The translations under genes were made by a program, and so were the position numbers. This document shows positions 1,870 to 44,182 of a stretch of DNA of 64,000 nucleotides, piece after piece (position 1 is the first letter of the stretch; each line of letters begins with the position of its first letter). The notes beneath the pieces are model-generated. The model searched no databases. It was not told the origin of the DNA and saw only the letters and a program-made list of their open reading frames with translations. Where the stretch lies: sequence record PZ445427.1; one strand, written 5' to 3'. This stretch comes from a phage.

Positions 1870-3086
1870 TGGGTTTAAAAAGCTGGATTACTGAAAAGCT
1901 AAATCCGGGTCAACGTATTATAAGAGACATGGAACCAGTTAGTCATCGCACTAACCGTAAGCCATTTACCACTGGACAAGCCTACAGTAAGATTGAGATT
2001 CTCAACCGAACTGCTAACATGGTTATCGATAGTGCGGCGGAGTGTTCTTATACTGTCGGAGATAAATATAATATTGTCACGTACGCTAATGGCGTCAAGG
2101 CAAAGACTCTAGACACTCTCTTAAATGTACGACCTAATCCATTCATGGATATAAGCACATTCCGTAGACTTGTAGTCACTGACCTACTTTTTGAGGGTTG
2201 TGCATACATCTATTGGGATGGCACAGCACTTTACCATGTCCCTGCTGCACTAATGCAAGTAGAGGCAGATGCCAATAAGTTTATCAAAAAATTCATATTT
2301 AATAACCAGATAGACTATCGCGTAGATGAGATTATCTTTATAAAGGATAACAGTTACGTGTGTGGCACAAACTCCCAAATTTCTGGACAATCTCGTGTTG
2401 CTACAGTTATTGACTCTCTTGAGAAGCGTTCTAAAATGCTTAACTTTAAAGAGAAGTTCCTCGATAACGGCACAGTGATTGGTCTTATTCTTGAGACGGA
2501 TGAAATCCTGAACAAGAAATTGCGTGAGCGTAAACAAGAAGAATTACAACTCGATTATAATCCTAGTACGGGTCAGTCTACTGTCCTTATTCTAGATGGT
2601 GGTATGAAAGCAAAACCGTACTCCCAAATATCCTCTTTTAAAGATCTAGACTTCAAGGAAGATATCGAAGGATTTAATAAATCCATCTGTCTTGCCTTTG
2701 GTGTTCCGCAAGTGTTACTTGATGGTGGTAATAATGCTAACATTCGACCAAACATCGAATTGTTCTATTACATGACTATCATTCCTATGCTGAACAAGCT
2801 GACTAGTTCTCTTACTTTCTTCTTTGGCTACAAGGTTACTCCTAATACTAAGGAAGTAGCTGCACTGACGCCAGATAAAGAAGCTGAGGCTAAACATTTA
2901 ACCTCTTTGGTTAATAACGGTATCATGACTGGTAACGAAGCTCGTGAAGAGCTTAACCTTGAACCTTTAGATGATGAGCAGATGAATAAGATTCGTATTC
3001 CTGCTAACGTTGCTGGTTCTGCAACAGGTATATCTGGTCAAGAAGGTGGTAGACCGCAAGGCACTGCCGAGGGGGATAAAGAATGA
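1869..3086 (+). CDS. Portal protein (T5 pb7-like)
   Basis: 405 aa, position directly after terminase/HNH and before the decoration and protease genes; size as I recall for T5 pb7 (about 403 aa). Confidence 0.75.
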   Translation: MGLKSWITEKLNPGQRIIRDMEPVSHRTNRKPFTTGQAYSKIEILNRTANMVIDSAAECSYTVGDKYNIVTYANGVKAKTLDTLLNVRPNPFMDISTFRRLVVTDLLFEGCAYIYWDGTALYHVPAALMQVEADANKFIKKFIFNNQIDYRVDEIIFIKDNSYVCGTNSQISGQSRVATVIDSLEKRSKMLNFKEKFLDNGTVIGLILETDEILNKKLRERKQEELQLDYNPSTGQSTVLILDGGMKAKPYSQISSFKDLDFKEDIEGFNKSICLAFGVPQVLLDGGNNANIRPNIELFYYMTIIPMLNKLTSSLTFFFGYKVTPNTKEVAALTPDKEAEAKHLTSLVNNGIMTGNEAREELNLEPLDDEQMNKIRIPANVAGSATGISGQEGGRPQGTAEGDKE

Positions 3087-3565
3087 TTGATTATGATGGT
3101 CTAAAGGCCATTTTTGGTGAAAAGCTGCCAGAATCTCATATCTTCTTTGCTACGGTTGCAGCACACAAGTTCGTTCCAAACTACGCTACTCTACGTAAAG
3201 AGTTTGGAATGACCACTGCACATACCAACCGCAAGGTTTGGAATAAGTTCAAAGAAGCATACGAAGTTACTGTTCCGGTTGTTCCGGCTCTAGCTTTCAC
3301 GAAGAATCTGGCTAAAACTCTAGCTGTTGATACTGGTGCAGCAATTAATCTGGGCGTAACAGTTACTGGTGGTACTGCACCATATACTTATGCTTGGACT
3401 AAGGACGGTTCTCCACTAAGTGGTGTTACTGGCCCTAATTTCAACAAAGCTACAGCTGCTGCAGAAGATGCTGGTACTTACAAAGTTGTTGTAACGGATA
3501 GTAAATCTACTTCTATTACTTCTAACGAGTGTGTAACAACTATCAACCCTGCGCCGGAGGCTTAA
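3083..3565 (+). CDS. Head decoration protein with C-terminal Ig-like domain (pb10-like)
   Basis: 160 aa; C-terminal part with Ig-like character (GTAPYTYAWTKDGSPL...GTYKVVVTD); located between portal and protease; ATGA overlap with portal. Confidence 0.6.
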   Translation: MIDYDGLKAIFGEKLPESHIFFATVAAHKFVPNYATLRKEFGMTTAHTNRKVWNKFKEAYEVTVPVVPALAFTKNLAKTLAVDTGAAINLGVTVTGGTAPYTYAWTKDGSPLSGVTGPNFNKATAAAEDAGTYKVVVTDSKSTSITSNECVTTINPAPEA

Positions 3566-38968: not shown

Positions 38969-39736
38969 TTATTCAGCAGCCGCAGCTTTTGCATCCAGTT
39001 TAGCACGCTTAGCGGCACCATCATAGTCCTTAGCAACCAGACCACGACGAGACAGCATAGATTTAACACCGCGCTCAGACTTACCAGTTTTCTCAGCGAT
39101 CTCAGCAACAGTCATGTTAGCCAGATCCAGACCTTCTAACAGATCTTCACGAGTTTTAGCACTTGAAGTTTCCTGTACCGGCATAGCAGCGATACGACCT
39201 TCACGAAGCAGGCTCAGAGCTTTACCACGAATCTGCTTAATATTGCGACCGAAGTGAGCAGCGATAGCTTCAATAGTAGCACCAGCAACAACCTGATTAA
39301 CGAAATCAGTTTCTTCGTCAGGAGTGAAGGAACGAACAGCAGCAGCTTTTTCAGTTGGCTTAACAGAAGCGGTCATTTCCAGACTCAGGATCTTACCCTG
39401 TACCTGCTTAGCACCGAACTGACCACCAGCTACAGCAGCAGCGATTTCAGCGTAAGTATACTGACCAGCATGAGCGTTCAGGAAATCAACTAGTTCAGCT
39501 TCCTGCTCAGGAGTCCACGGGGATTTCTGTACTTCGTTAGCTTTCTGTACTTCGAAACCTTCTTTACGCAGCTTAGAGCCAACAGAGCGAGCGGTAACGT
39601 CTTTGCCAGTCTCGGTAGCCAGTTCAGCAGCGATAGCAGCTACTTGTTCTTGAGAGATTACAGCAACACCCAGAGCAGTGGCTTTTGCTTTCAGAGACTC
39701 GGTTACACCTTCTACGTTCCAGTTCAGTTTAGACAT
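38969..39736 (-). CDS. Protein composed of four tandem HTH-like repeats (putative DNA- or RNA-polymerase-binding regulator)
   Basis: 255 aa; four repeats of the pattern (T/S)xxEIAxxxGxxxxxVxxKxLSxxGL (for example MTVAEIAEKTGKSERGVKSMLSRRGL) resembling LuxR / sigma70 region 4 HTH; host-like codon usage. Confidence 0.5.
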   Translation of the reverse strand: MSKLNWNVEGVTESLKAKATALGVAVISQEQVAAIAAELATETGKDVTARSVGSKLRKEGFEVQKANEVQKSPWTPEQEAELVDFLNAHAGQYTYAEIAAAVAGGQFGAKQVQGKILSLEMTASVKPTEKAAAVRSFTPDEETDFVNQVVAGATIEAIAAHFGRNIKQIRGKALSLLREGRIAAMPVQETSSAKTREDLLEGLDLANMTVAEIAEKTGKSERGVKSMLSRRGLVAKDYDGAAKRAKLDAKAAAAE

Positions 39737-40508
39737 TATTATTTTTCTCCAATAGTTCTTTAATCGACAGGATTTCTATCCCATTCGTTTCGGCTTTCTT
39801 ATAAGATGAGGAAGAACGTTTTGATTCATCCTCACAGATTAGGTATTTGACGTCTTTGGTAACGGACTTCTTGACCGTATATCCTAGACTTTCTAAATAG
39901 TTTGTTGCATCCGTTCGATTTGCAAAGTCTTGCAAAGATCCGGTAATACAGACCGTGATTCCATTTGGCTGGGCAACTAAATCATCTGTAATGATGATAT
40001 CAGCTTTAGCACCTCGAATACCAGTTGAGAATTTCCACGGTAGTTCAATAACATCCTTGCCTTGTGGGGAATTTAGCCAGGTTTTGTAATTTTCTCCAGC
40101 CTTGCCGTCAGCCTTCACATCGTGGAAGCTAGTGCAATTTTGGGACAGTTTCTTTGCTGCAACCTCTCCAATAAGAGGAATTCCTAAAGAACCGAGAACT
40201 GAACCAAAGTCAATGTCTCCGCGAACCTTAGTATTTAACTCGCTAATCAACTTAGCGGCAACCTTGCTACCCACAGCTCCTACCAAATCTTCTTCGGTCA
40301 GGTAAAACAGTTCTGAGATCTTAGTCAGCTCCAGCTTCTCAATAGTTTTCGGGCCAAAGCCCTTTAACTTCATTTTTGTGCAGAAGTTCTCGATTAACTT
40401 ACTTGATTGCGCTGGACAGTTGGACTTATTCCTACAGAATAATTGCCCGTTGACAAGATCTAGCTTAGAACCACAAGAGGGACATTGTGTTGGAATTTCG
40501 ATTTTCAT
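39729..40508 (-). CDS. NAD-dependent DNA ligase, C-terminal fragment (Zn-finger, HhH, BRCT); ligB-like
   Basis: N-terminal CPSCGSKL...CRNKSNC zinc ribbon, HhH region, C-terminal BRCT-like domain (VCITGSL...); own promoter upstream; ATG at 40508. Confidence 0.75.
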   Translation of the reverse strand: MKIEIPTQCPSCGSKLDLVNGQLFCRNKSNCPAQSSKLIENFCTKMKLKGFGPKTIEKLELTKISELFYLTEEDLVGAVGSKVAAKLISELNTKVRGDIDFGSVLGSLGIPLIGEVAAKKLSQNCTSFHDVKADGKAGENYKTWLNSPQGKDVIELPWKFSTGIRGAKADIIITDDLVAQPNGITVCITGSLQDFANRTDATNYLESLGYTVKKSVTKDVKYLICEDESKRSSSSYKKAETNGIEILSIKELLEKNNNV

Positions 40509-40538
40509 CAAATTTCTTCCTTATCAATTTATATAAAT

Positions 40539-40567
40539 ATTATAGCAAGTATTTAAGCATTTAGCAA
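40539..40567 (-). promoter_or_regulatory. Early sigma70 promoter inside the ligase spacer, driving the C-terminal ligase fragment
   Basis: On the - strand TTGCTA, 17-nt spacer, TATAAT, then ...AAATTGATAAGGAAG... RBS. Confidence 0.6.
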
Positions 40568-40710
40568 CTACAATTTTAACTAACTTTGCTTACCCTCGCC
40601 ATAACTTTCTATCCCTCAACTGAATGATAATAGTATATACCTAAGCGGCGAAAATGTCAATAACCACTTTATAATTCCGACATGGTAAACGGGTAGCAAA
40701 GGGTTACGAA

Positions 40711-41682
40711 TTAGTCGTATACTCGCTCTACTATACAAGGGATTACACCACCAGCACGAATCACTCGAATCTGGCAACCGATCTCTAAATCGAGAGCGTT
40801 AATATAATCAACGTTATTAAGAGTTGCTTTAACGATTGTGGCATCATCAATAATCACCGGTTCGAAATAACCAACTGGAGTTACTTTACCAGAAGCCCCT
40901 ACTTGCCATTCAACTTTAACAAGTGTGGTAATTTCGCCTTCTTCATCCTCTTTAATAGCAAATGCACCACGAGGAAATTTATTAGTCCAACCTTCACGGA
41001 AGAATTTGTTGTTATCATTAATACGAACAACTTTACCATCCGTCGGAATCCACTTAAAGAAGGAACGAACATTAACAACTGTCAAGAAGTTCTCATTCTC
41101 TAGCCAAAGCATATCTTTTAAATAGGCTTCTGTAATACCGACTGTTTCCGCTGAACACTGGATACCATATGCAACGAAGATTAAACCACCTTCACCAATA
41201 CGTTGCATGAAATCATCGCTGTCTTTCAGGTTAATAGCACCCGAAGCGTAGTTACGTTTGTTCTCTACTTCTTTAGTAATGAGAACTTCACCAGTGATTT
41301 GAGTTGGTACTTTTTGGGAAATAGTTTTGGGGATGTTTAGCATTTTAACATTATGCGTTACATCATTCCCTAGAATACCGTTACCACGAGTTAACGCTTG
41401 AACAAATTCACCATTAATATATAACAGAGAAATTGCACAGCCATCTAACTTATCAGTTTCAACCTGACCTAATGGATTGAATGGAGCTTTATCACCACGA
41501 CCGTAATAGACTTTCTGCAAAGAATACATACGATACAAGTGAGGAATATCACCTTTCGGTCCGATTTCTTCCTCTAGTGGGAATCTTTTAATCAGACGAT
41601 CATATTCTTCATCGGAAATAAGACTCATTCCCTGGTAGTACGCTTCTTGACAACGTTTGATAAAGTCTTTTACATTATTCAT
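40711..41682 (-). CDS. NAD-dependent DNA ligase, N-terminal fragment (adenylation and OB-fold domains); ligA-like
   Basis: 323 aa; adenylation motif KLDGCAIS (catalytic lysine), OB-fold region; ends before the zinc finger that opens the next ORF. Confidence 0.8.
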   Translation of the reverse strand: MNNVKDFIKRCQEAYYQGMSLISDEEYDRLIKRFPLEEEIGPKGDIPHLYRMYSLQKVYYGRGDKAPFNPLGQVETDKLDGCAISLLYINGEFVQALTRGNGILGNDVTHNVKMLNIPKTISQKVPTQITGEVLITKEVENKRNYASGAINLKDSDDFMQRIGEGGLIFVAYGIQCSAETVGITEAYLKDMLWLENENFLTVVNVRSFFKWIPTDGKVVRINDNNKFFREGWTNKFPRGAFAIKEDEEGEITTLVKVEWQVGASGKVTPVGYFEPVIIDDATIVKATLNNVDYINALDLEIGCQIRVIRAGGVIPCIVERVYD

Positions 41683-41875
41683 CGTCTGCGATTTCCATTT
41701 TGAGTTCTTTATTATACTGAGCAGCCATACCAGCTAAATCAGCAGCTTCTTTTAACCACGCATCTTTGTACGCTTTCTGGTTTGGAGTGCCAATATTGTC
41801 CTGATAATTGATCTTTGCTATGGAAAGCAAATTAAGTTTTGCTTGAATCTTTGGAAGTGTTATTGTCATTGCCAT
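41675..41875 (-). CDS. Hypothetical small protein
   Basis: ATG (MAMTITLPK...) preceded by GAGAGGA RBS and a TATAAT promoter; overlaps the ligase fragment start. Confidence 0.4.
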   Translation of the reverse strand: MAMTITLPKIQAKLNLLSIAKINYQDNIGTPNQKAYKDAWLKEAADLAGMAAQYNKELKMEIADDE

Positions 41876-41960
41876 AATTGATCCTCTCATCAATTTATAT
41901 AAATATTATATATGAAAACTGAGTCGAAAGCAAGTACATTTATAAAGAAAAAGCCAAGAA

Positions 41961-42269
41961 CTAGGCATTCTTGGCTTTGAGTTCTTCAGCTCGTTTCTGT
42001 ACTTCATGCAAGACCTCGGATTCACTGAGGATTTGCGTAAAAGCGTAGAATAGCTGTGACGTAGTTTCTAGGGTATAAGGAAAAGAGAAGCCGGATTTCG
42101 TTGGAAACCACTCTCCAGTAATATCTTGGAGCCAGTAACGAATTCCCATGTATAGATTCCCACGAAATTCAGATACGGTTAGTCTTACTTGTTCTCCCTC
42201 CTTCTCCCAAAGCATGATGGACTGGTCGTCAACGTGTCCTTCATAGTTTTGATTTACCTGATCGCTCAT
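41961..42269 (-). CDS. PC4-like ssDNA-binding protein (putative)
   Basis: 102 aa; segment VRLTVSEFRGNLYMGIRYWLQDITGEWFPTKSGFSF matches the PC4/Sub1 core pattern (v.vs.F.G...idIReYw...g...PgkKGisl); terminator hairpin embedded in the 3' end. Confidence 0.55.
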   Translation of the reverse strand: MSDQVNQNYEGHVDDQSIMLWEKEGEQVRLTVSEFRGNLYMGIRYWLQDITGEWFPTKSGFSFPYTLETTSQLFYAFTQILSESEVLHEVQKRAEELKAKNA

Positions 42270-43063: not shown

Positions 43064-43170
43064 ATTTTTCGATTTCCTTAATTAAGAATTAAACAGAATA
43101 GTTCTTTCAAACTATGAGAATATTATATCAAGAATTACAGGATTAAGCAACTGAAATTTTTCAGTAACTG

Positions 43171-44153: not shown

Positions 44154-44182
44154 ATTATACAGAAAAATTTTCCTAAAAGCAA
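44154..44182 (-). promoter_or_regulatory. T5 PN25-type strong early promoter
   Basis: The - strand reads TTGCTTTTAGGAAAATTTTTCTGTATAATAGATTCATAAATTTGAGAGAGGAGTTTAAATATG, nearly identical to the PN25 sequence as I recall it. Confidence 0.8.

What the first reader, a model, noticed from the sequence alone, without database searches (positions are those of the whole stretch)
39729..41682. NAD-dependent DNA ligase encoded as two separate ORFs with an intervening promoter-containing spacer
ORF 40711-41682 carries the adenylation (KLDGCAIS) and OB-fold domains and stops just before the zinc finger. ORF 39729-40508 begins with the zinc ribbon (CPSCG...CRNKSNC) and continues through HhH and BRCT. They are separated by about 200 bp that contain a complete early promoter (TTGCTA-17-TATAAT) and RBS for the downstream fragment. 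I recall T5 being annotated with ligase subunits A and B, so the split is probably ancestral in this phage group, but whether the two polypeptides assemble into an active ligase and what the spacer derives from (intron or homing-element remnant) is not evident from sequence.
Basis: partly seen in the sequence, partly recalled or inferred. Interest (0 to 1): 0.45.

Follow-up and report, generated by a model that had tools for sequence, protein, structure and literature searches.

The report
Two-subunit NAD-dependent DNA ligase of T5-like phage
This T5-like phage encodes its NAD-dependent DNA ligase as two adjacent genes separated by a short promoter-bearing gap, an arrangement that is real but long annotated in phage T5, and a related phage's two-chain enzyme has been solved on nicked DNA.

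Summary
On the minus strand, ligA (40711-41682, 323 aa) carries the NMN-binding, adenylation and OB domains. ligB (39729-40508, 259 aa) carries the zinc finger, HhH and BRCT domains. A 202-bp spacer separates them. The break lies in the OB-to-zinc-finger linker of E. coli LigA, with about six residues lost.

The spacer holds two sigma-70-type promoters, not one. Their positions are conserved across the nine Demerecviridae loci compared. No intron, homing-endonuclease or intein signature was found.

The window is 100% identical to Salmonella phages EH4, EH2 and EH5 over this region. T5 records already annotate ligA/ligB (dnlj1/dnlj2) and both spacer promoters. PDB 9HU3, released 2026-01-14, is titled [quoted passage not shown]. 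Its chains are about 53-54% identical to the proteins here.

New details from this work:
- The spacer is far more conserved than synonymous sites in the flanking genes.
- Some relatives carry small genes between ligA and the promoter block.
- Divergent T5-like metagenomic contigs carry an unsplit compact ligase of about 560 aa at the same locus.

Verdict: already known, low interest.

The parts
40711..41682 (-). ligA: catalytic subunit (domain Ia NMN-binding motif, nucleotidyltransferase with KLDG at K78, OB fold). It ends ...VIPCIVERVYD*.
   Evidence: ORF. Pfam aden + OB. phrog_3359 matched full length, E 2e-176. TIGR00575 positions 63-378 of 652. PDB 9hu3_A E 2e-106; residue 320 = E. coli 390. 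dN/dS 0.05 against T5.
40509..40710 (-). 202-bp intergenic spacer, 32% GC, stops in all frames. The proximal ~50 nt is variable and the distal ~150 nt is a conserved tandem-promoter block.
   Evidence: It is 196/202 identical to T5, while the flanking genes have dS 0.23-0.62.
40632..40660 (-). Promoter P1, TTGACA-17-TATACT (T5 'putative early promoter T5P36'). Its -10 ends 123 nt before the ligB ATG.
   Evidence: 11/12. T5 annotation. The same element lies 116-127 nt before ligB in 9 Demerecviridae loci, including Vibrio phages.
40576..40602 (-). 8-codon mini-ORF (MARVSKVS*) preceded by GAGGGA, downstream of P1. It is not conserved outside the closest relatives and is probably not a gene.
   Evidence: Sequence. 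Alignment shows it absent in Kpn13-P2, Eos and others.
40539..40567 (-). Promoter P2, TTGCTA-17-TATAAT with a TG extended -10 (T5 'T5P37'). It is followed by the T5 early-promoter transcribed sequence ATTTATATAAATTGATAAG ('repeat b').
   Evidence: The -10 ends 28-30 nt before the ligB start in all loci, including two remote metagenomic ligB genes.
40516..40522 (-). Shine-Dalgarno AAGGAAG, 7 nt before the ligB ATG.
   Evidence: Sequence.
39729..40508 (-). ligB: DNA-binding subunit (Cys4 zinc finger C9/C12/C25/C31, HhH domain, flexible linker 164-179, BRCT). Its stop overlaps the start of the D5 gene by 8 nt.
   Evidence: ORF. Pfam BRCT/HhH. phrog_3498 matched full length, E 4e-137. TIGR00575 positions 388-651. 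PDB 9hu3_B E 1e-79; residue 3 = E. coli 402. AF2 model pLDDT 83. dN/dS 0.09.
41905..41933 (-). Early promoter of the ligA transcription unit (TTGCTT-17-TATAAT plus the same 'repeat b' transcribed sequence as P2). It follows a terminator-like hairpin at 41950-41978.
   Evidence: Corresponds to T5P35 and the terminator in the T5 record.
41675..41875 (-). 66-aa ORF (phrog_8267, unknown function) between that promoter and ligA. It overlaps the ligA start by 8 nt and is absent at this position in T5.

Best explanation
This is the standard two-subunit NAD+-dependent DNA ligase of T5-like phages (Demerecviridae).

ligA encodes the catalytic half: the NMN-binding Ia motif, the nucleotidyltransferase domain with the adenylated lysine K78, and the OB fold. 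ligB encodes the DNA-binding half: a Cys4 zinc finger, the HhH domain and BRCT. The two are made as separate polypeptides and associate non-covalently into a heterodimer. That heterodimer reconstitutes the LigA clamp around a nick.

The 202-bp gap is neither an intron nor recoded. It is a conserved regulatory region with two tandem sigma-70 early promoters. ligB therefore heads its own transcription unit, ligB-D5-helicase-primase, and probably also receives read-through from the ligA unit.

Shown here: gene structure, break point, purifying selection, promoter-motif conservation, and the existence of a solved homologous heterodimer on nicked DNA.

Inferred: promoter activity in vivo, heterodimer formation and activity for this particular phage's proteins, and read-through from ligA.
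For: - The two ORFs tile full-length LigA profiles with only a 6-9-position gap: TIGR00575 63-378 and 388-651; phrog_3869 9-381 and 388-654. Against E. coli LigA the aligned ranges end at 390 and resume at 402.
- Each half matches its own full-length phage family, phrog_3359 and phrog_3498.
- PDB 9HU3/9I5I contain both chains. Chain A gives E 2e-106 and ends at the same ...VE.V.D C-terminus. Chain B gives E 1e-79 and starts at the same MKI.IPT.CP N-terminus. 9HU3 is titled 'PR1 phage heterodimeric DNA ligase in complex with 21-mer nicked DNA containing phage nick sequence'.
- The break point is identical in nine Demerecviridae loci from enterobacterial, Providencia, Pectobacterium, Klebsiella and Vibrio phages.
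- dN/dS against T5 is 0.05 for ligA and 0.09 for ligB. The Zn-finger Cys are invariant.
- The tandem promoter block is conserved in position family-wide. A promoter sits at the same distance before ligB in two remote metagenomic relatives.
- The spacer is 97% identical to T5, although synonymous divergence in the flanking genes is 0.23-0.62.
- The T5 record annotates T5P36 and T5P37 here.
Against: - No direct biochemical or transcript data exist for this phage or for T5 in the searched literature.
- The solved homologue is only about 53-54% identical.
- Promoter-like motifs are not statistically enriched in the region as a whole, so promoter function rests on conservation and annotation.
- I could not inspect the 9HU3 coordinates, so the nature of the subunit interface is not established here.
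Confidence: 0.9

Rival explanations
1. The spacer is the decayed remnant of a mobile element (a group I intron or a free-standing homing endonuclease gene) whose insertion split an ancestral single ligase gene. This would resemble the mobE insertion that split nrdA in Aeromonas phage Aeh1.
For: - The gap is a demonstrable insertion slot. Salmonella phages bastian and S132 have a 64-aa ORF there. Vibrio phages Thalassa, vspsw1 and D375 have 1-3 ORFs there.
- Unsplit compact ligases exist at the same locus in divergent T5-like contigs, so a fission event did occur at some point.
- T5 itself carries several HNH homing endonucleases (PMC4319617).
Against: - No Rfam intron family matches anywhere in 39400-42100 at E<=1.
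- None of the spacer ORFs matches HNH, GIY-YIG or LAGLIDADG families. One is DprA-like (phrog_768), one is crAss001_48-like, and the others have no known function or no match.
- The conserved part of the spacer consists of promoter hexamers and spacing, not coding or structured-RNA sequence.
- The 202-bp, 32% GC spacer is too short for a self-splicing group I intron.
Confidence: 0.06
2. The two ORFs are joined into one polypeptide by recoding (ribosomal bypass as in T4 gene 60, or frameshifting), by RNA splicing, or by protein trans-splicing through a split intein.
For: Only the adjacency and same orientation of the two ORFs support this. T-even phages provide precedents for bypassing and introns (background knowledge).
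Against: - The 202-nt gap has stops in all frames, and ligB is in a different frame.
- In Vibrio phages the gap is 443-1360 bp and contains genes.
- ligB has its own conserved Shine-Dalgarno, ATG and promoters.
- The GAT near the ligB start, the only Asp codon that could serve as a landing site for the final GAC of ligA, is out of frame and runs into a stop (read).
- LigA ends and LigB begins exactly at the LigA domain boundaries, with no extra intein-sized residues.
- The solved PR1 enzyme is deposited as two chains with these same termini.
Confidence: 0.01
3. The split marks a decaying or functionally diverged ligase. One or both fragments are inactive, or act independently rather than as one enzyme. 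For example, LigB could act as a BRCT/HhH scaffold for the replisome and LigA as a stand-alone adenylyltransferase.
For: - ligB is transcriptionally grouped with D5, helicase and primase rather than only with ligA.
- Isolated N-terminal fragments of bacterial LigA can self-adenylate but join nicks poorly (background knowledge), so independent roles are conceivable.
Against: - Both halves are under strong purifying selection.
- All catalytic and Zn-binding residues examined are retained.
- The pair is co-retained and adjacent in all nine annotated Demerecviridae loci fetched; tblastn with the PR1 LigB-type chain matched 930 phage records, adjacency not checked in the rest.
- The homologous pair was solved as a heterodimer on nicked DNA.
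Confidence: 0.03

Closest known systems
Providencia phage PR1 heterodimeric NAD+ DNA ligase (PDB 9HU3 and 9I5I, released 2026-01-14)
   Same: It has the same two-gene architecture, the same C-terminus of subunit A and the same N-terminus of subunit B. Chain A gives E 2e-106 and chain B E 1e-79. It is a Demerecviridae phage with the same ~190-bp spacer carrying the same tandem promoter motifs, as seen in the identical PSTCR5 locus.
   Different: It is only about 53-54% identical in each subunit. It has a different host genus. It has a terminator-like hairpin directly after ligA that the window lacks.
Bacteriophage T5 ligA/ligB (dnlj1/dnlj2; AAU05253/AAU05254; AAX12044/AAX12045)
   Same: LigA is 95% and LigB 96% identical. 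The spacer is 202 bp in both, with 196/202 bases identical. The same promoters are annotated as T5P36 and T5P37, and the 'repeat b' module is the same.
   Different: In T5 ligA directly follows its promoter (T5P35). In the window a 66-aa ORF (phrog_8267) is interposed and overlaps the ligA start.
Bacterial LigA (E. coli LigA, PDB 2OWO)
   Same: The domain order is the same: Ia-NTase-OB-Zn-HhH-BRCT. The KxDG lysine, motif IV/V residues and four Zn Cys are conserved. The AF2 model of LigB superposes on 2OWO (Foldseek E 1e-7).
   Different: E. coli LigA is a single 671-aa chain. The phage enzyme is 323 + 259 aa, is more compact, and is broken in the OB-Zn linker (E. coli residues about 394-399).
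Unsplit compact (~555-578 aa) ligases of divergent T5-like metagenomic phages (P0152, P0175, P0206, P0225; contigs L010-L013)
   Same: They sit in the same syntenic position: A2-like/orf136, orf98, orf102, then ligase, D5, DnaB-type helicase, primase. They have the same compact domain set and are 33-43% identical to both halves.
   Different: They have one continuous ORF, with a 7-8-residue linker in three of the four, longer in P0152 (e.g. ...IIPKIINV-LSSGTGR-IIAPTECPSC) where the window has stop + 202 bp + start. No promoter lies at the linker.
'Genes in pieces' in phages: Aeh1 nrdA split by the mobE homing endonuclease; T4 topoisomerase gp39/gp60 (background knowledge, not tested here)
   Same: An essential replication enzyme is split at a domain boundary into two polypeptides that reassemble non-covalently.
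   Different: Those splits are associated with a homing endonuclease gene or a bypass element. Here the intervening DNA is a promoter block, and no mobile-element signature was found.
E. coli LigB paralogue (NF005987)
   Same: Only the name is shared.
   Different: E. coli LigB is a full-length LigA paralogue lacking BRCT. The phage 'LigB' is the C-terminal half of a LigA-type enzyme. The NCBIfam LigB model hits the window's LigA half, not its LigB half.

Membership tests
NAD+-dependent DNA ligase (LigA type) | Nucleotidyltransferase domain with KxDG adenylation motif and motifs IV/V | tested here: met
   Pfam DNA_ligase_aden E 2e-23. K78-L-D-G aligns to E. coli K115. D215 aligns to D285 and K244 to K314.
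NAD+-dependent DNA ligase (LigA type) | N-terminal domain Ia with NMN-binding residues (YY...D..YD), which confers NAD+ specificity | tested here: inconclusive
   The motif AYYQGMSLISDEEYDRL is present and aligns to E. coli ...IPDAEYDRL. However, the HMMER stretch scores are weak or insignificant. Cofactor use was not tested.
NAD+-dependent DNA ligase (LigA type) | OB fold followed by Cys4 zinc finger, HhH domain and BRCT | tested here: met
   OB E 9e-22. BRCT E 1e-8. HhH weak (21.6 bits, below the 27-bit cut-off). Four invariant Cys. TIGR00575 positions 388-651 are covered by LigB.
NAD+-dependent DNA ligase (LigA type) | All domains on a single polypeptide | tested here: not met
   Two ORFs are separated by 202 bp with stops in all frames. 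Each half scores below the TIGR00575 whole-protein cut-off: 173 and 107 bits against 444.
T5-type heterodimeric ligase (PR1 9HU3; T5 ligA/ligB) | Subunit A homologous over full length, ending at the OB fold | tested here: met
   9hu3_A E 2e-106, query 4-323 against chain 11-339 (its C-terminus). phrog_3359 positions 1-325 of 325.
T5-type heterodimeric ligase (PR1 9HU3; T5 ligA/ligB) | Subunit B homologous over full length, starting at the zinc finger | tested here: met
   9hu3_B E 1e-79, query 1-255 against chain 1-244. phrog_3498 positions 1-255 of 256.
T5-type heterodimeric ligase (PR1 9HU3; T5 ligA/ligB) | Adjacent, co-oriented genes in the ligA-ligB-D5-helicase-primase block of a Demerecviridae genome | tested here: met
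T5-type heterodimeric ligase (PR1 9HU3; T5 ligA/ligB) | Physical heterodimer with nick-sealing activity | not testable with these tools
   This is inferred from the PDB title of the homologue only.
Gene split by group I/II intron or homing endonuclease | Intron RNA core or an HNH/GIY-YIG/LAGLIDADG ORF in the intervening DNA | tested here: not met
   The Rfam E<=1 scan is empty in the spacer. Spacer ORFs of relatives give no endonuclease family.
Split-intein trans-spliced protein | Intein N-fragment after the N-extein, and intein C-fragment plus a nucleophile before the C-extein | tested here: not met
   LigA ends 3 residues after E. coli position 390, and LigB starts 2 residues before position 402. 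There are no extra residues.
Programmed translational bypass (T4 gene 60 type) | Short (~50 nt) coding gap with matched take-off and landing codons in a continuous message | tested here: not met
   The gap is 202 nt here and 443-1360 nt with genes in Vibrio relatives. No in-frame landing codon exists. ligB has its own SD, ATG and promoters.

The most novel reading that the evidence does not exclude
The OB/zinc-finger linker of this compact phage ligase may be a recurrently used fission point. On this reading, splitting is coupled to the acquisition of a strong promoter, so the DNA-binding LigB subunit is expressed with the D5-helicase-primase unit independently of the catalytic subunit. Fused and split forms would then have interconverted more than once in T5-like phages. 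The reasons to consider this are that fused ~560-aa forms are interspersed among split forms in a poorly resolved tree, that every split ligB examined carries a promoter 28-30 nt upstream, and that the slot between ligA and the promoter block accepts small genes.
Probability: 0.2. Interest if true: 0.4.

Novelty: already known. Interest (0 to 1): 0.15.

Why it matters
It matters little for discovery. The split ligase has been in T5 genome annotations since 2004-2005. It is named 'subunit A/B' in hundreds of phage records. A homologous heterodimer bound to nicked DNA is now in the PDB.

The arrangement is a clean natural example of an essential replication enzyme working as two chains cut at a domain boundary, with a promoter block in the cut. 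The unsplit relatives found here give a before/after pair. That pair could be used to ask why fission was fixed. Possible reasons include subunit stoichiometry, co-regulation with the replisome, or the handling of the T5-type genome nicks.

Tried and rejected
- **Literature for the PR1/T5 split-ligase biochemistry.** I searched for '9HU3', 'split/heterodimeric/two-subunit DNA ligase', 'PSTCR5', 'vB_PreS_PR1' and 'PR1 ligase'. Nothing relevant turned up in the held library. The only evidence for assembly is the PDB entry title.
- **Exact-sequence search of the two promoters in papers.** No hits. I therefore could not show that P1 or P2 are among the experimentally characterised T5 promoters. 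No T5 transcription-start map was found either.
- **Intron, ribozyme or sRNA in the spacer.** The Rfam scan at E<=1 gave only a chance-level antisense hit inside ligA. I rejected this reading.
- **Homing-endonuclease origin.** Pfam and PHROGs scans of all ORFs found in the enlarged spacers of relatives showed no endonuclease domains.
- **Polarising the split with an NJ tree of the LigB module.** A first attempt timed out. The second gave a star-like tree. Fused forms were scattered and bootstrap support for split monophyly was 0/40. I draw no conclusion on the number or direction of events.
- **A promoter hidden at the linker of the fused genes.** None was found.
- **A conserved leader structure between P1 and ligB.** Only an MFE fold of the window sequence was computed, without covariation support. 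The sequence between the promoters is not conserved. I did not pursue this.
Full report
**What is there.** On the minus strand the window carries two adjacent ORFs. The first, 40711-41682 (323 aa), hits Pfam DNA_ligase_aden and DNA_ligase_OB. The second, 39729-40508 (259 aa), has its ATG at 40508, preceded by AAGGAAG. It hits BRCT and, weakly, HhH. They are separated by 202 bp (40509-40710). That gap has stop codons in all three frames, and the two ORFs are in different frames.

**Identity of the window.** The 2.2-kb region is 100% identical to Salmonella phages EH4, EH2 and EH5. It is at least 95% identical to about 200 T5-like Salmonella and Escherichia phages. [quoted passage not shown] The flanking genes are D5, a DnaB-type helicase and a primase, which is the T5 early replication block.

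**Break point.**
- HMMER alignments to E. coli LigA (2OWO) put LigA residue 320 at E. coli 390 and LigB residue 3 at E. coli 402.
- The cut is therefore in the short linker between the OB fold and the zinc finger, with roughly six residues missing.
- TIGR00575 is covered at positions 63-378 by LigA and 388-651 by LigB. The full-length phage family phrog_3869 is covered at 9-381 and 388-654.
- K78 (KLDG) aligns with the adenylated K115, D215 with D285 and K244 with K314.
- The four zinc-finger Cys are invariant in 23 homologues.
- The domain Ia motif (AYYQG...SDEEYDRL) is visible but scores weakly.
- An AlphaFold2 model of LigB (pLDDT 83) shows a small beta-hairpin, a helical HhH region, a disordered linker (164-179) and a BRCT fold.

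**The assembly question.**
- Both proteins have a strong match to a single PDB entry pair, 9HU3/9I5I. Chain A, 'DNA ligase (NAD(+))', gives E 2e-106. Chain B, 'DNA ligase subunit B', gives E 1e-79.
- Foldseek returned the entry title: 'PR1 phage heterodimeric DNA ligase in complex with 21-mer nicked DNA containing phage nick sequence', released 2026-01-14.
- Chain B is 100% identical to the LigB of Providencia phage PSTCR5, a Demerecviridae phage.
- Chain A ends, and chain B begins, at exactly the residues where the window's proteins end and begin.
- A homologue about 53-54% identical has therefore been solved as a two-chain enzyme on its substrate.
- I found no accompanying paper in the held library.

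**Distribution of the split.**
- I fetched the locus from T5, Providencia PSTCR5, Pectobacterium DU_PP_V, Klebsiella vB_Kpn13-P2, phage Eos, and Vibrio phages Thalassa, D375 and vspsw1.
- In all of them LigA ends ...IPxI(V/I)... followed 3-5 residues later by a stop, and LigB begins M(K/Q)I.IPT.CP.C.
- All 120 best LigB homologue clusters in the 5.8-billion-protein collection, down to 49% identity, are 190-263 aa.
- An exhaustive HMMER search of 50%-identity representatives listed its 150 best hits. Of these, 99 were stand-alone LigB-type proteins (225-275 aa), 11 were compact fused ligases of 511-578 aa, and 12 were ordinary LigA of more than 600 aa.
- Four of the fused ones lie on metagenomic contigs with T5 synteny: homologues of the window's orf136, orf98 and orf102 upstream, and D5 and DnaB-type helicase homologues downstream where the contig extends that far, with a DnaG primase in L011.
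- In three of the four a 7-8-residue linker, longer in P0152 (e.g. IIPKIINV-LSSGTGR-IIAPTECPSC), stands where the window has stop, 202 bp and start.
- The unsplit state thus exists in divergent T5-like phages at the same locus.
- A neighbour-joining tree of the LigB module was star-like. Fused forms were scattered and there was no bootstrap support for split monophyly. I cannot say whether fission happened once or several times.

**What the spacer is.**
- The consensus scan finds exactly two minus-strand promoter-like sites in 39400-42100, and both are in the spacer. P1 is TTGACA-17-TATACT (40660-40632, 11/12). P2 is TTGCTA-17-TATAAT (40567-40539, with a TG extended -10).
- The T5 record AY587007 annotates both as putative early promoters T5P36 and T5P37. 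It marks a 25-nt 'repeat b' (TATAATATTTATATAAATTGATAAG) at P2 and again at the promoter upstream of ligA.
- Alignment of the 175 nt upstream of ligB from nine loci shows two things. The hexamers, their spacing and their distance to the ATG are conserved. The P1 -10 ends 116-127 nt upstream, and the P2 -10 ends about 29-30 nt upstream. The sequence between them is not conserved.
- Two remote metagenomic ligB genes (33-35% identical) also have a near-consensus promoter whose -10 ends 28-29 nt before the ATG.
- Between the window and T5 the spacer is 196/202 identical. Synonymous divergence is 0.62 in ligA and 0.23 in ligB. The spacer is therefore under constraint, or was exchanged recently.
- P2 belongs to the same promoter class as a series of other minus-strand promoters in the window. 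It matches the published remark that T5 early promoters share an ATATT motif just after the -10 (PMC7472727).

**No sign of an intron, homing element or recoding.**
- Rfam at E<=1 finds nothing in the spacer.
- The proximal part of the spacer, between the ligA stop and P1, is where relatives differ. Salmonella phages bastian and S132 have a 64-aa ORF there. Vibrio phage Thalassa has three ORFs, one of them DprA-like (phrog_768). vspsw1 has two, one crAss001_48-like. D375 has one or two.
- None of these is a homing endonuclease.
- The termini leave no room for intein fragments.
- A 202-1360-nt gap containing promoters and genes is incompatible with gene-60-type bypassing.

**Selection.** dN/dS against T5 is 0.05 for ligA and 0.09 for ligB. 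This argues against decay of either half.

**Transcription-unit picture (inferred).**
- A terminator-like hairpin (41978-41950) is followed by an early promoter (41933-41905). These precede a 66-aa ORF (phrog_8267) that overlaps the ligA start by 8 nt.
- No terminator-like site follows ligA in the window or in T5, although Eos and PSTCR5 have one.
- P1 and P2 then precede ligB, whose stop overlaps the D5 start by 8 nt.
- ligB therefore probably receives transcription from three promoters, and it heads the ligB-D5-helicase-primase unit.

**Verdict.** It has been overtaken on the assembly question by a solved homologous heterodimer. It is unsupported on the intron or homing-element origin. The feature is already known and annotated. 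The modest additions here are the family-wide tandem promoter block, the gene-insertion slot, and the unsplit relatives at the same locus.

Noticed in passing
window 40539-40660 (-); loci L001-L008, and L014/L015 upstream of ligB: The tandem promoter block in front of ligB is conserved in hexamer sequence, spacing and distance to the ATG from enterobacterial to Vibrio T5-like phages. A promoter sits at the same 28-29-nt distance in two very remote metagenomic ligB genes. The sequence between the promoters is not conserved, apart from a TTGRGG motif about 13 nt after the P1 -10.
   Followed up: partly
window 40509-40710 compared with T5 (L002 2799-3000): The spacer is 97% identical to T5 (196/202). 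Synonymous divergence is 0.62 in ligA and 0.23 in ligB. The large difference in dS between the two flanking genes also hints at a recombination boundary near the spacer.
   Followed up: partly
L009 (Salmonella phage bastian) 1531-1725; L003 (Thalassa) 1640-2843; L004 (D375) 2551-3011; L008 (vspsw1) 2817-3500: The stretch between the ligA stop and promoter P1 is an insertion slot for small genes. It holds a 64-aa ORF with no family in bastian and S132. It holds a DprA-like protein plus two unknowns in Thalassa, and a crAss001_48-like protein plus an unknown in vspsw1. In Pectobacterium phage DU_PP_V the DprA-like gene sits upstream of ligA instead.
   Followed up: partly
L010-L013 (metagenomic contigs); proteins P0152, P0175, P0206, P0225: Compact unsplit NAD ligases of 555-578 aa occur in divergent T5-like contigs with the same neighbours (D5, DnaB-type helicase, primase). 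These are natural fused counterparts of the split enzyme. L011 also carries NAMPT and PRPP-synthetase genes (NAD salvage) nearby.
   Followed up: partly
window 41675-41875 (-): A 66-aa ORF (phrog_8267, unknown function) lies between the early promoter at 41933-41905 and ligA, overlapping the ligA ATG by 8 nt. T5 has no gene at this position, and there ligA follows the promoter directly.
   Followed up: partly
window 44154-44182 (-) and 43122-43150 (-): Two promoters lie 1.5-2.5 kb upstream of ligA. Their sequences (TTGCTTTTAGGAAAATTTTTCTGTATAATAGATTCATAAATTTGAGAGAGGAG and TTGCTTAATCCTGTAATTCTTGATATAATATTCTCATAGTTTGAA) look, from my memory only, like the classical strong T5 promoters PN25 and P25 used in expression vectors. 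I did not verify this against a source.
   Followed up: no
window 40576-40602 (-): An 8-codon mini-ORF (MARVSKVS) with a GAGGGA Shine-Dalgarno-like sequence lies just downstream of P1. It is present in the window and T5 but not in Klebsiella, Eos or other relatives. It may be the remnant of a lost small gene or part of the promoter's transcribed region.
   Followed up: partly
L007 (Eos) and L001 (PSTCR5), first ~45 nt after the ligA stop: Hairpins of 9-10 bp followed by T-runs (terminator-like) lie directly after ligA in Eos and PSTCR5 but not in the window or T5. The degree of transcriptional coupling between ligA and ligB may therefore differ between genera.
   Followed up: no
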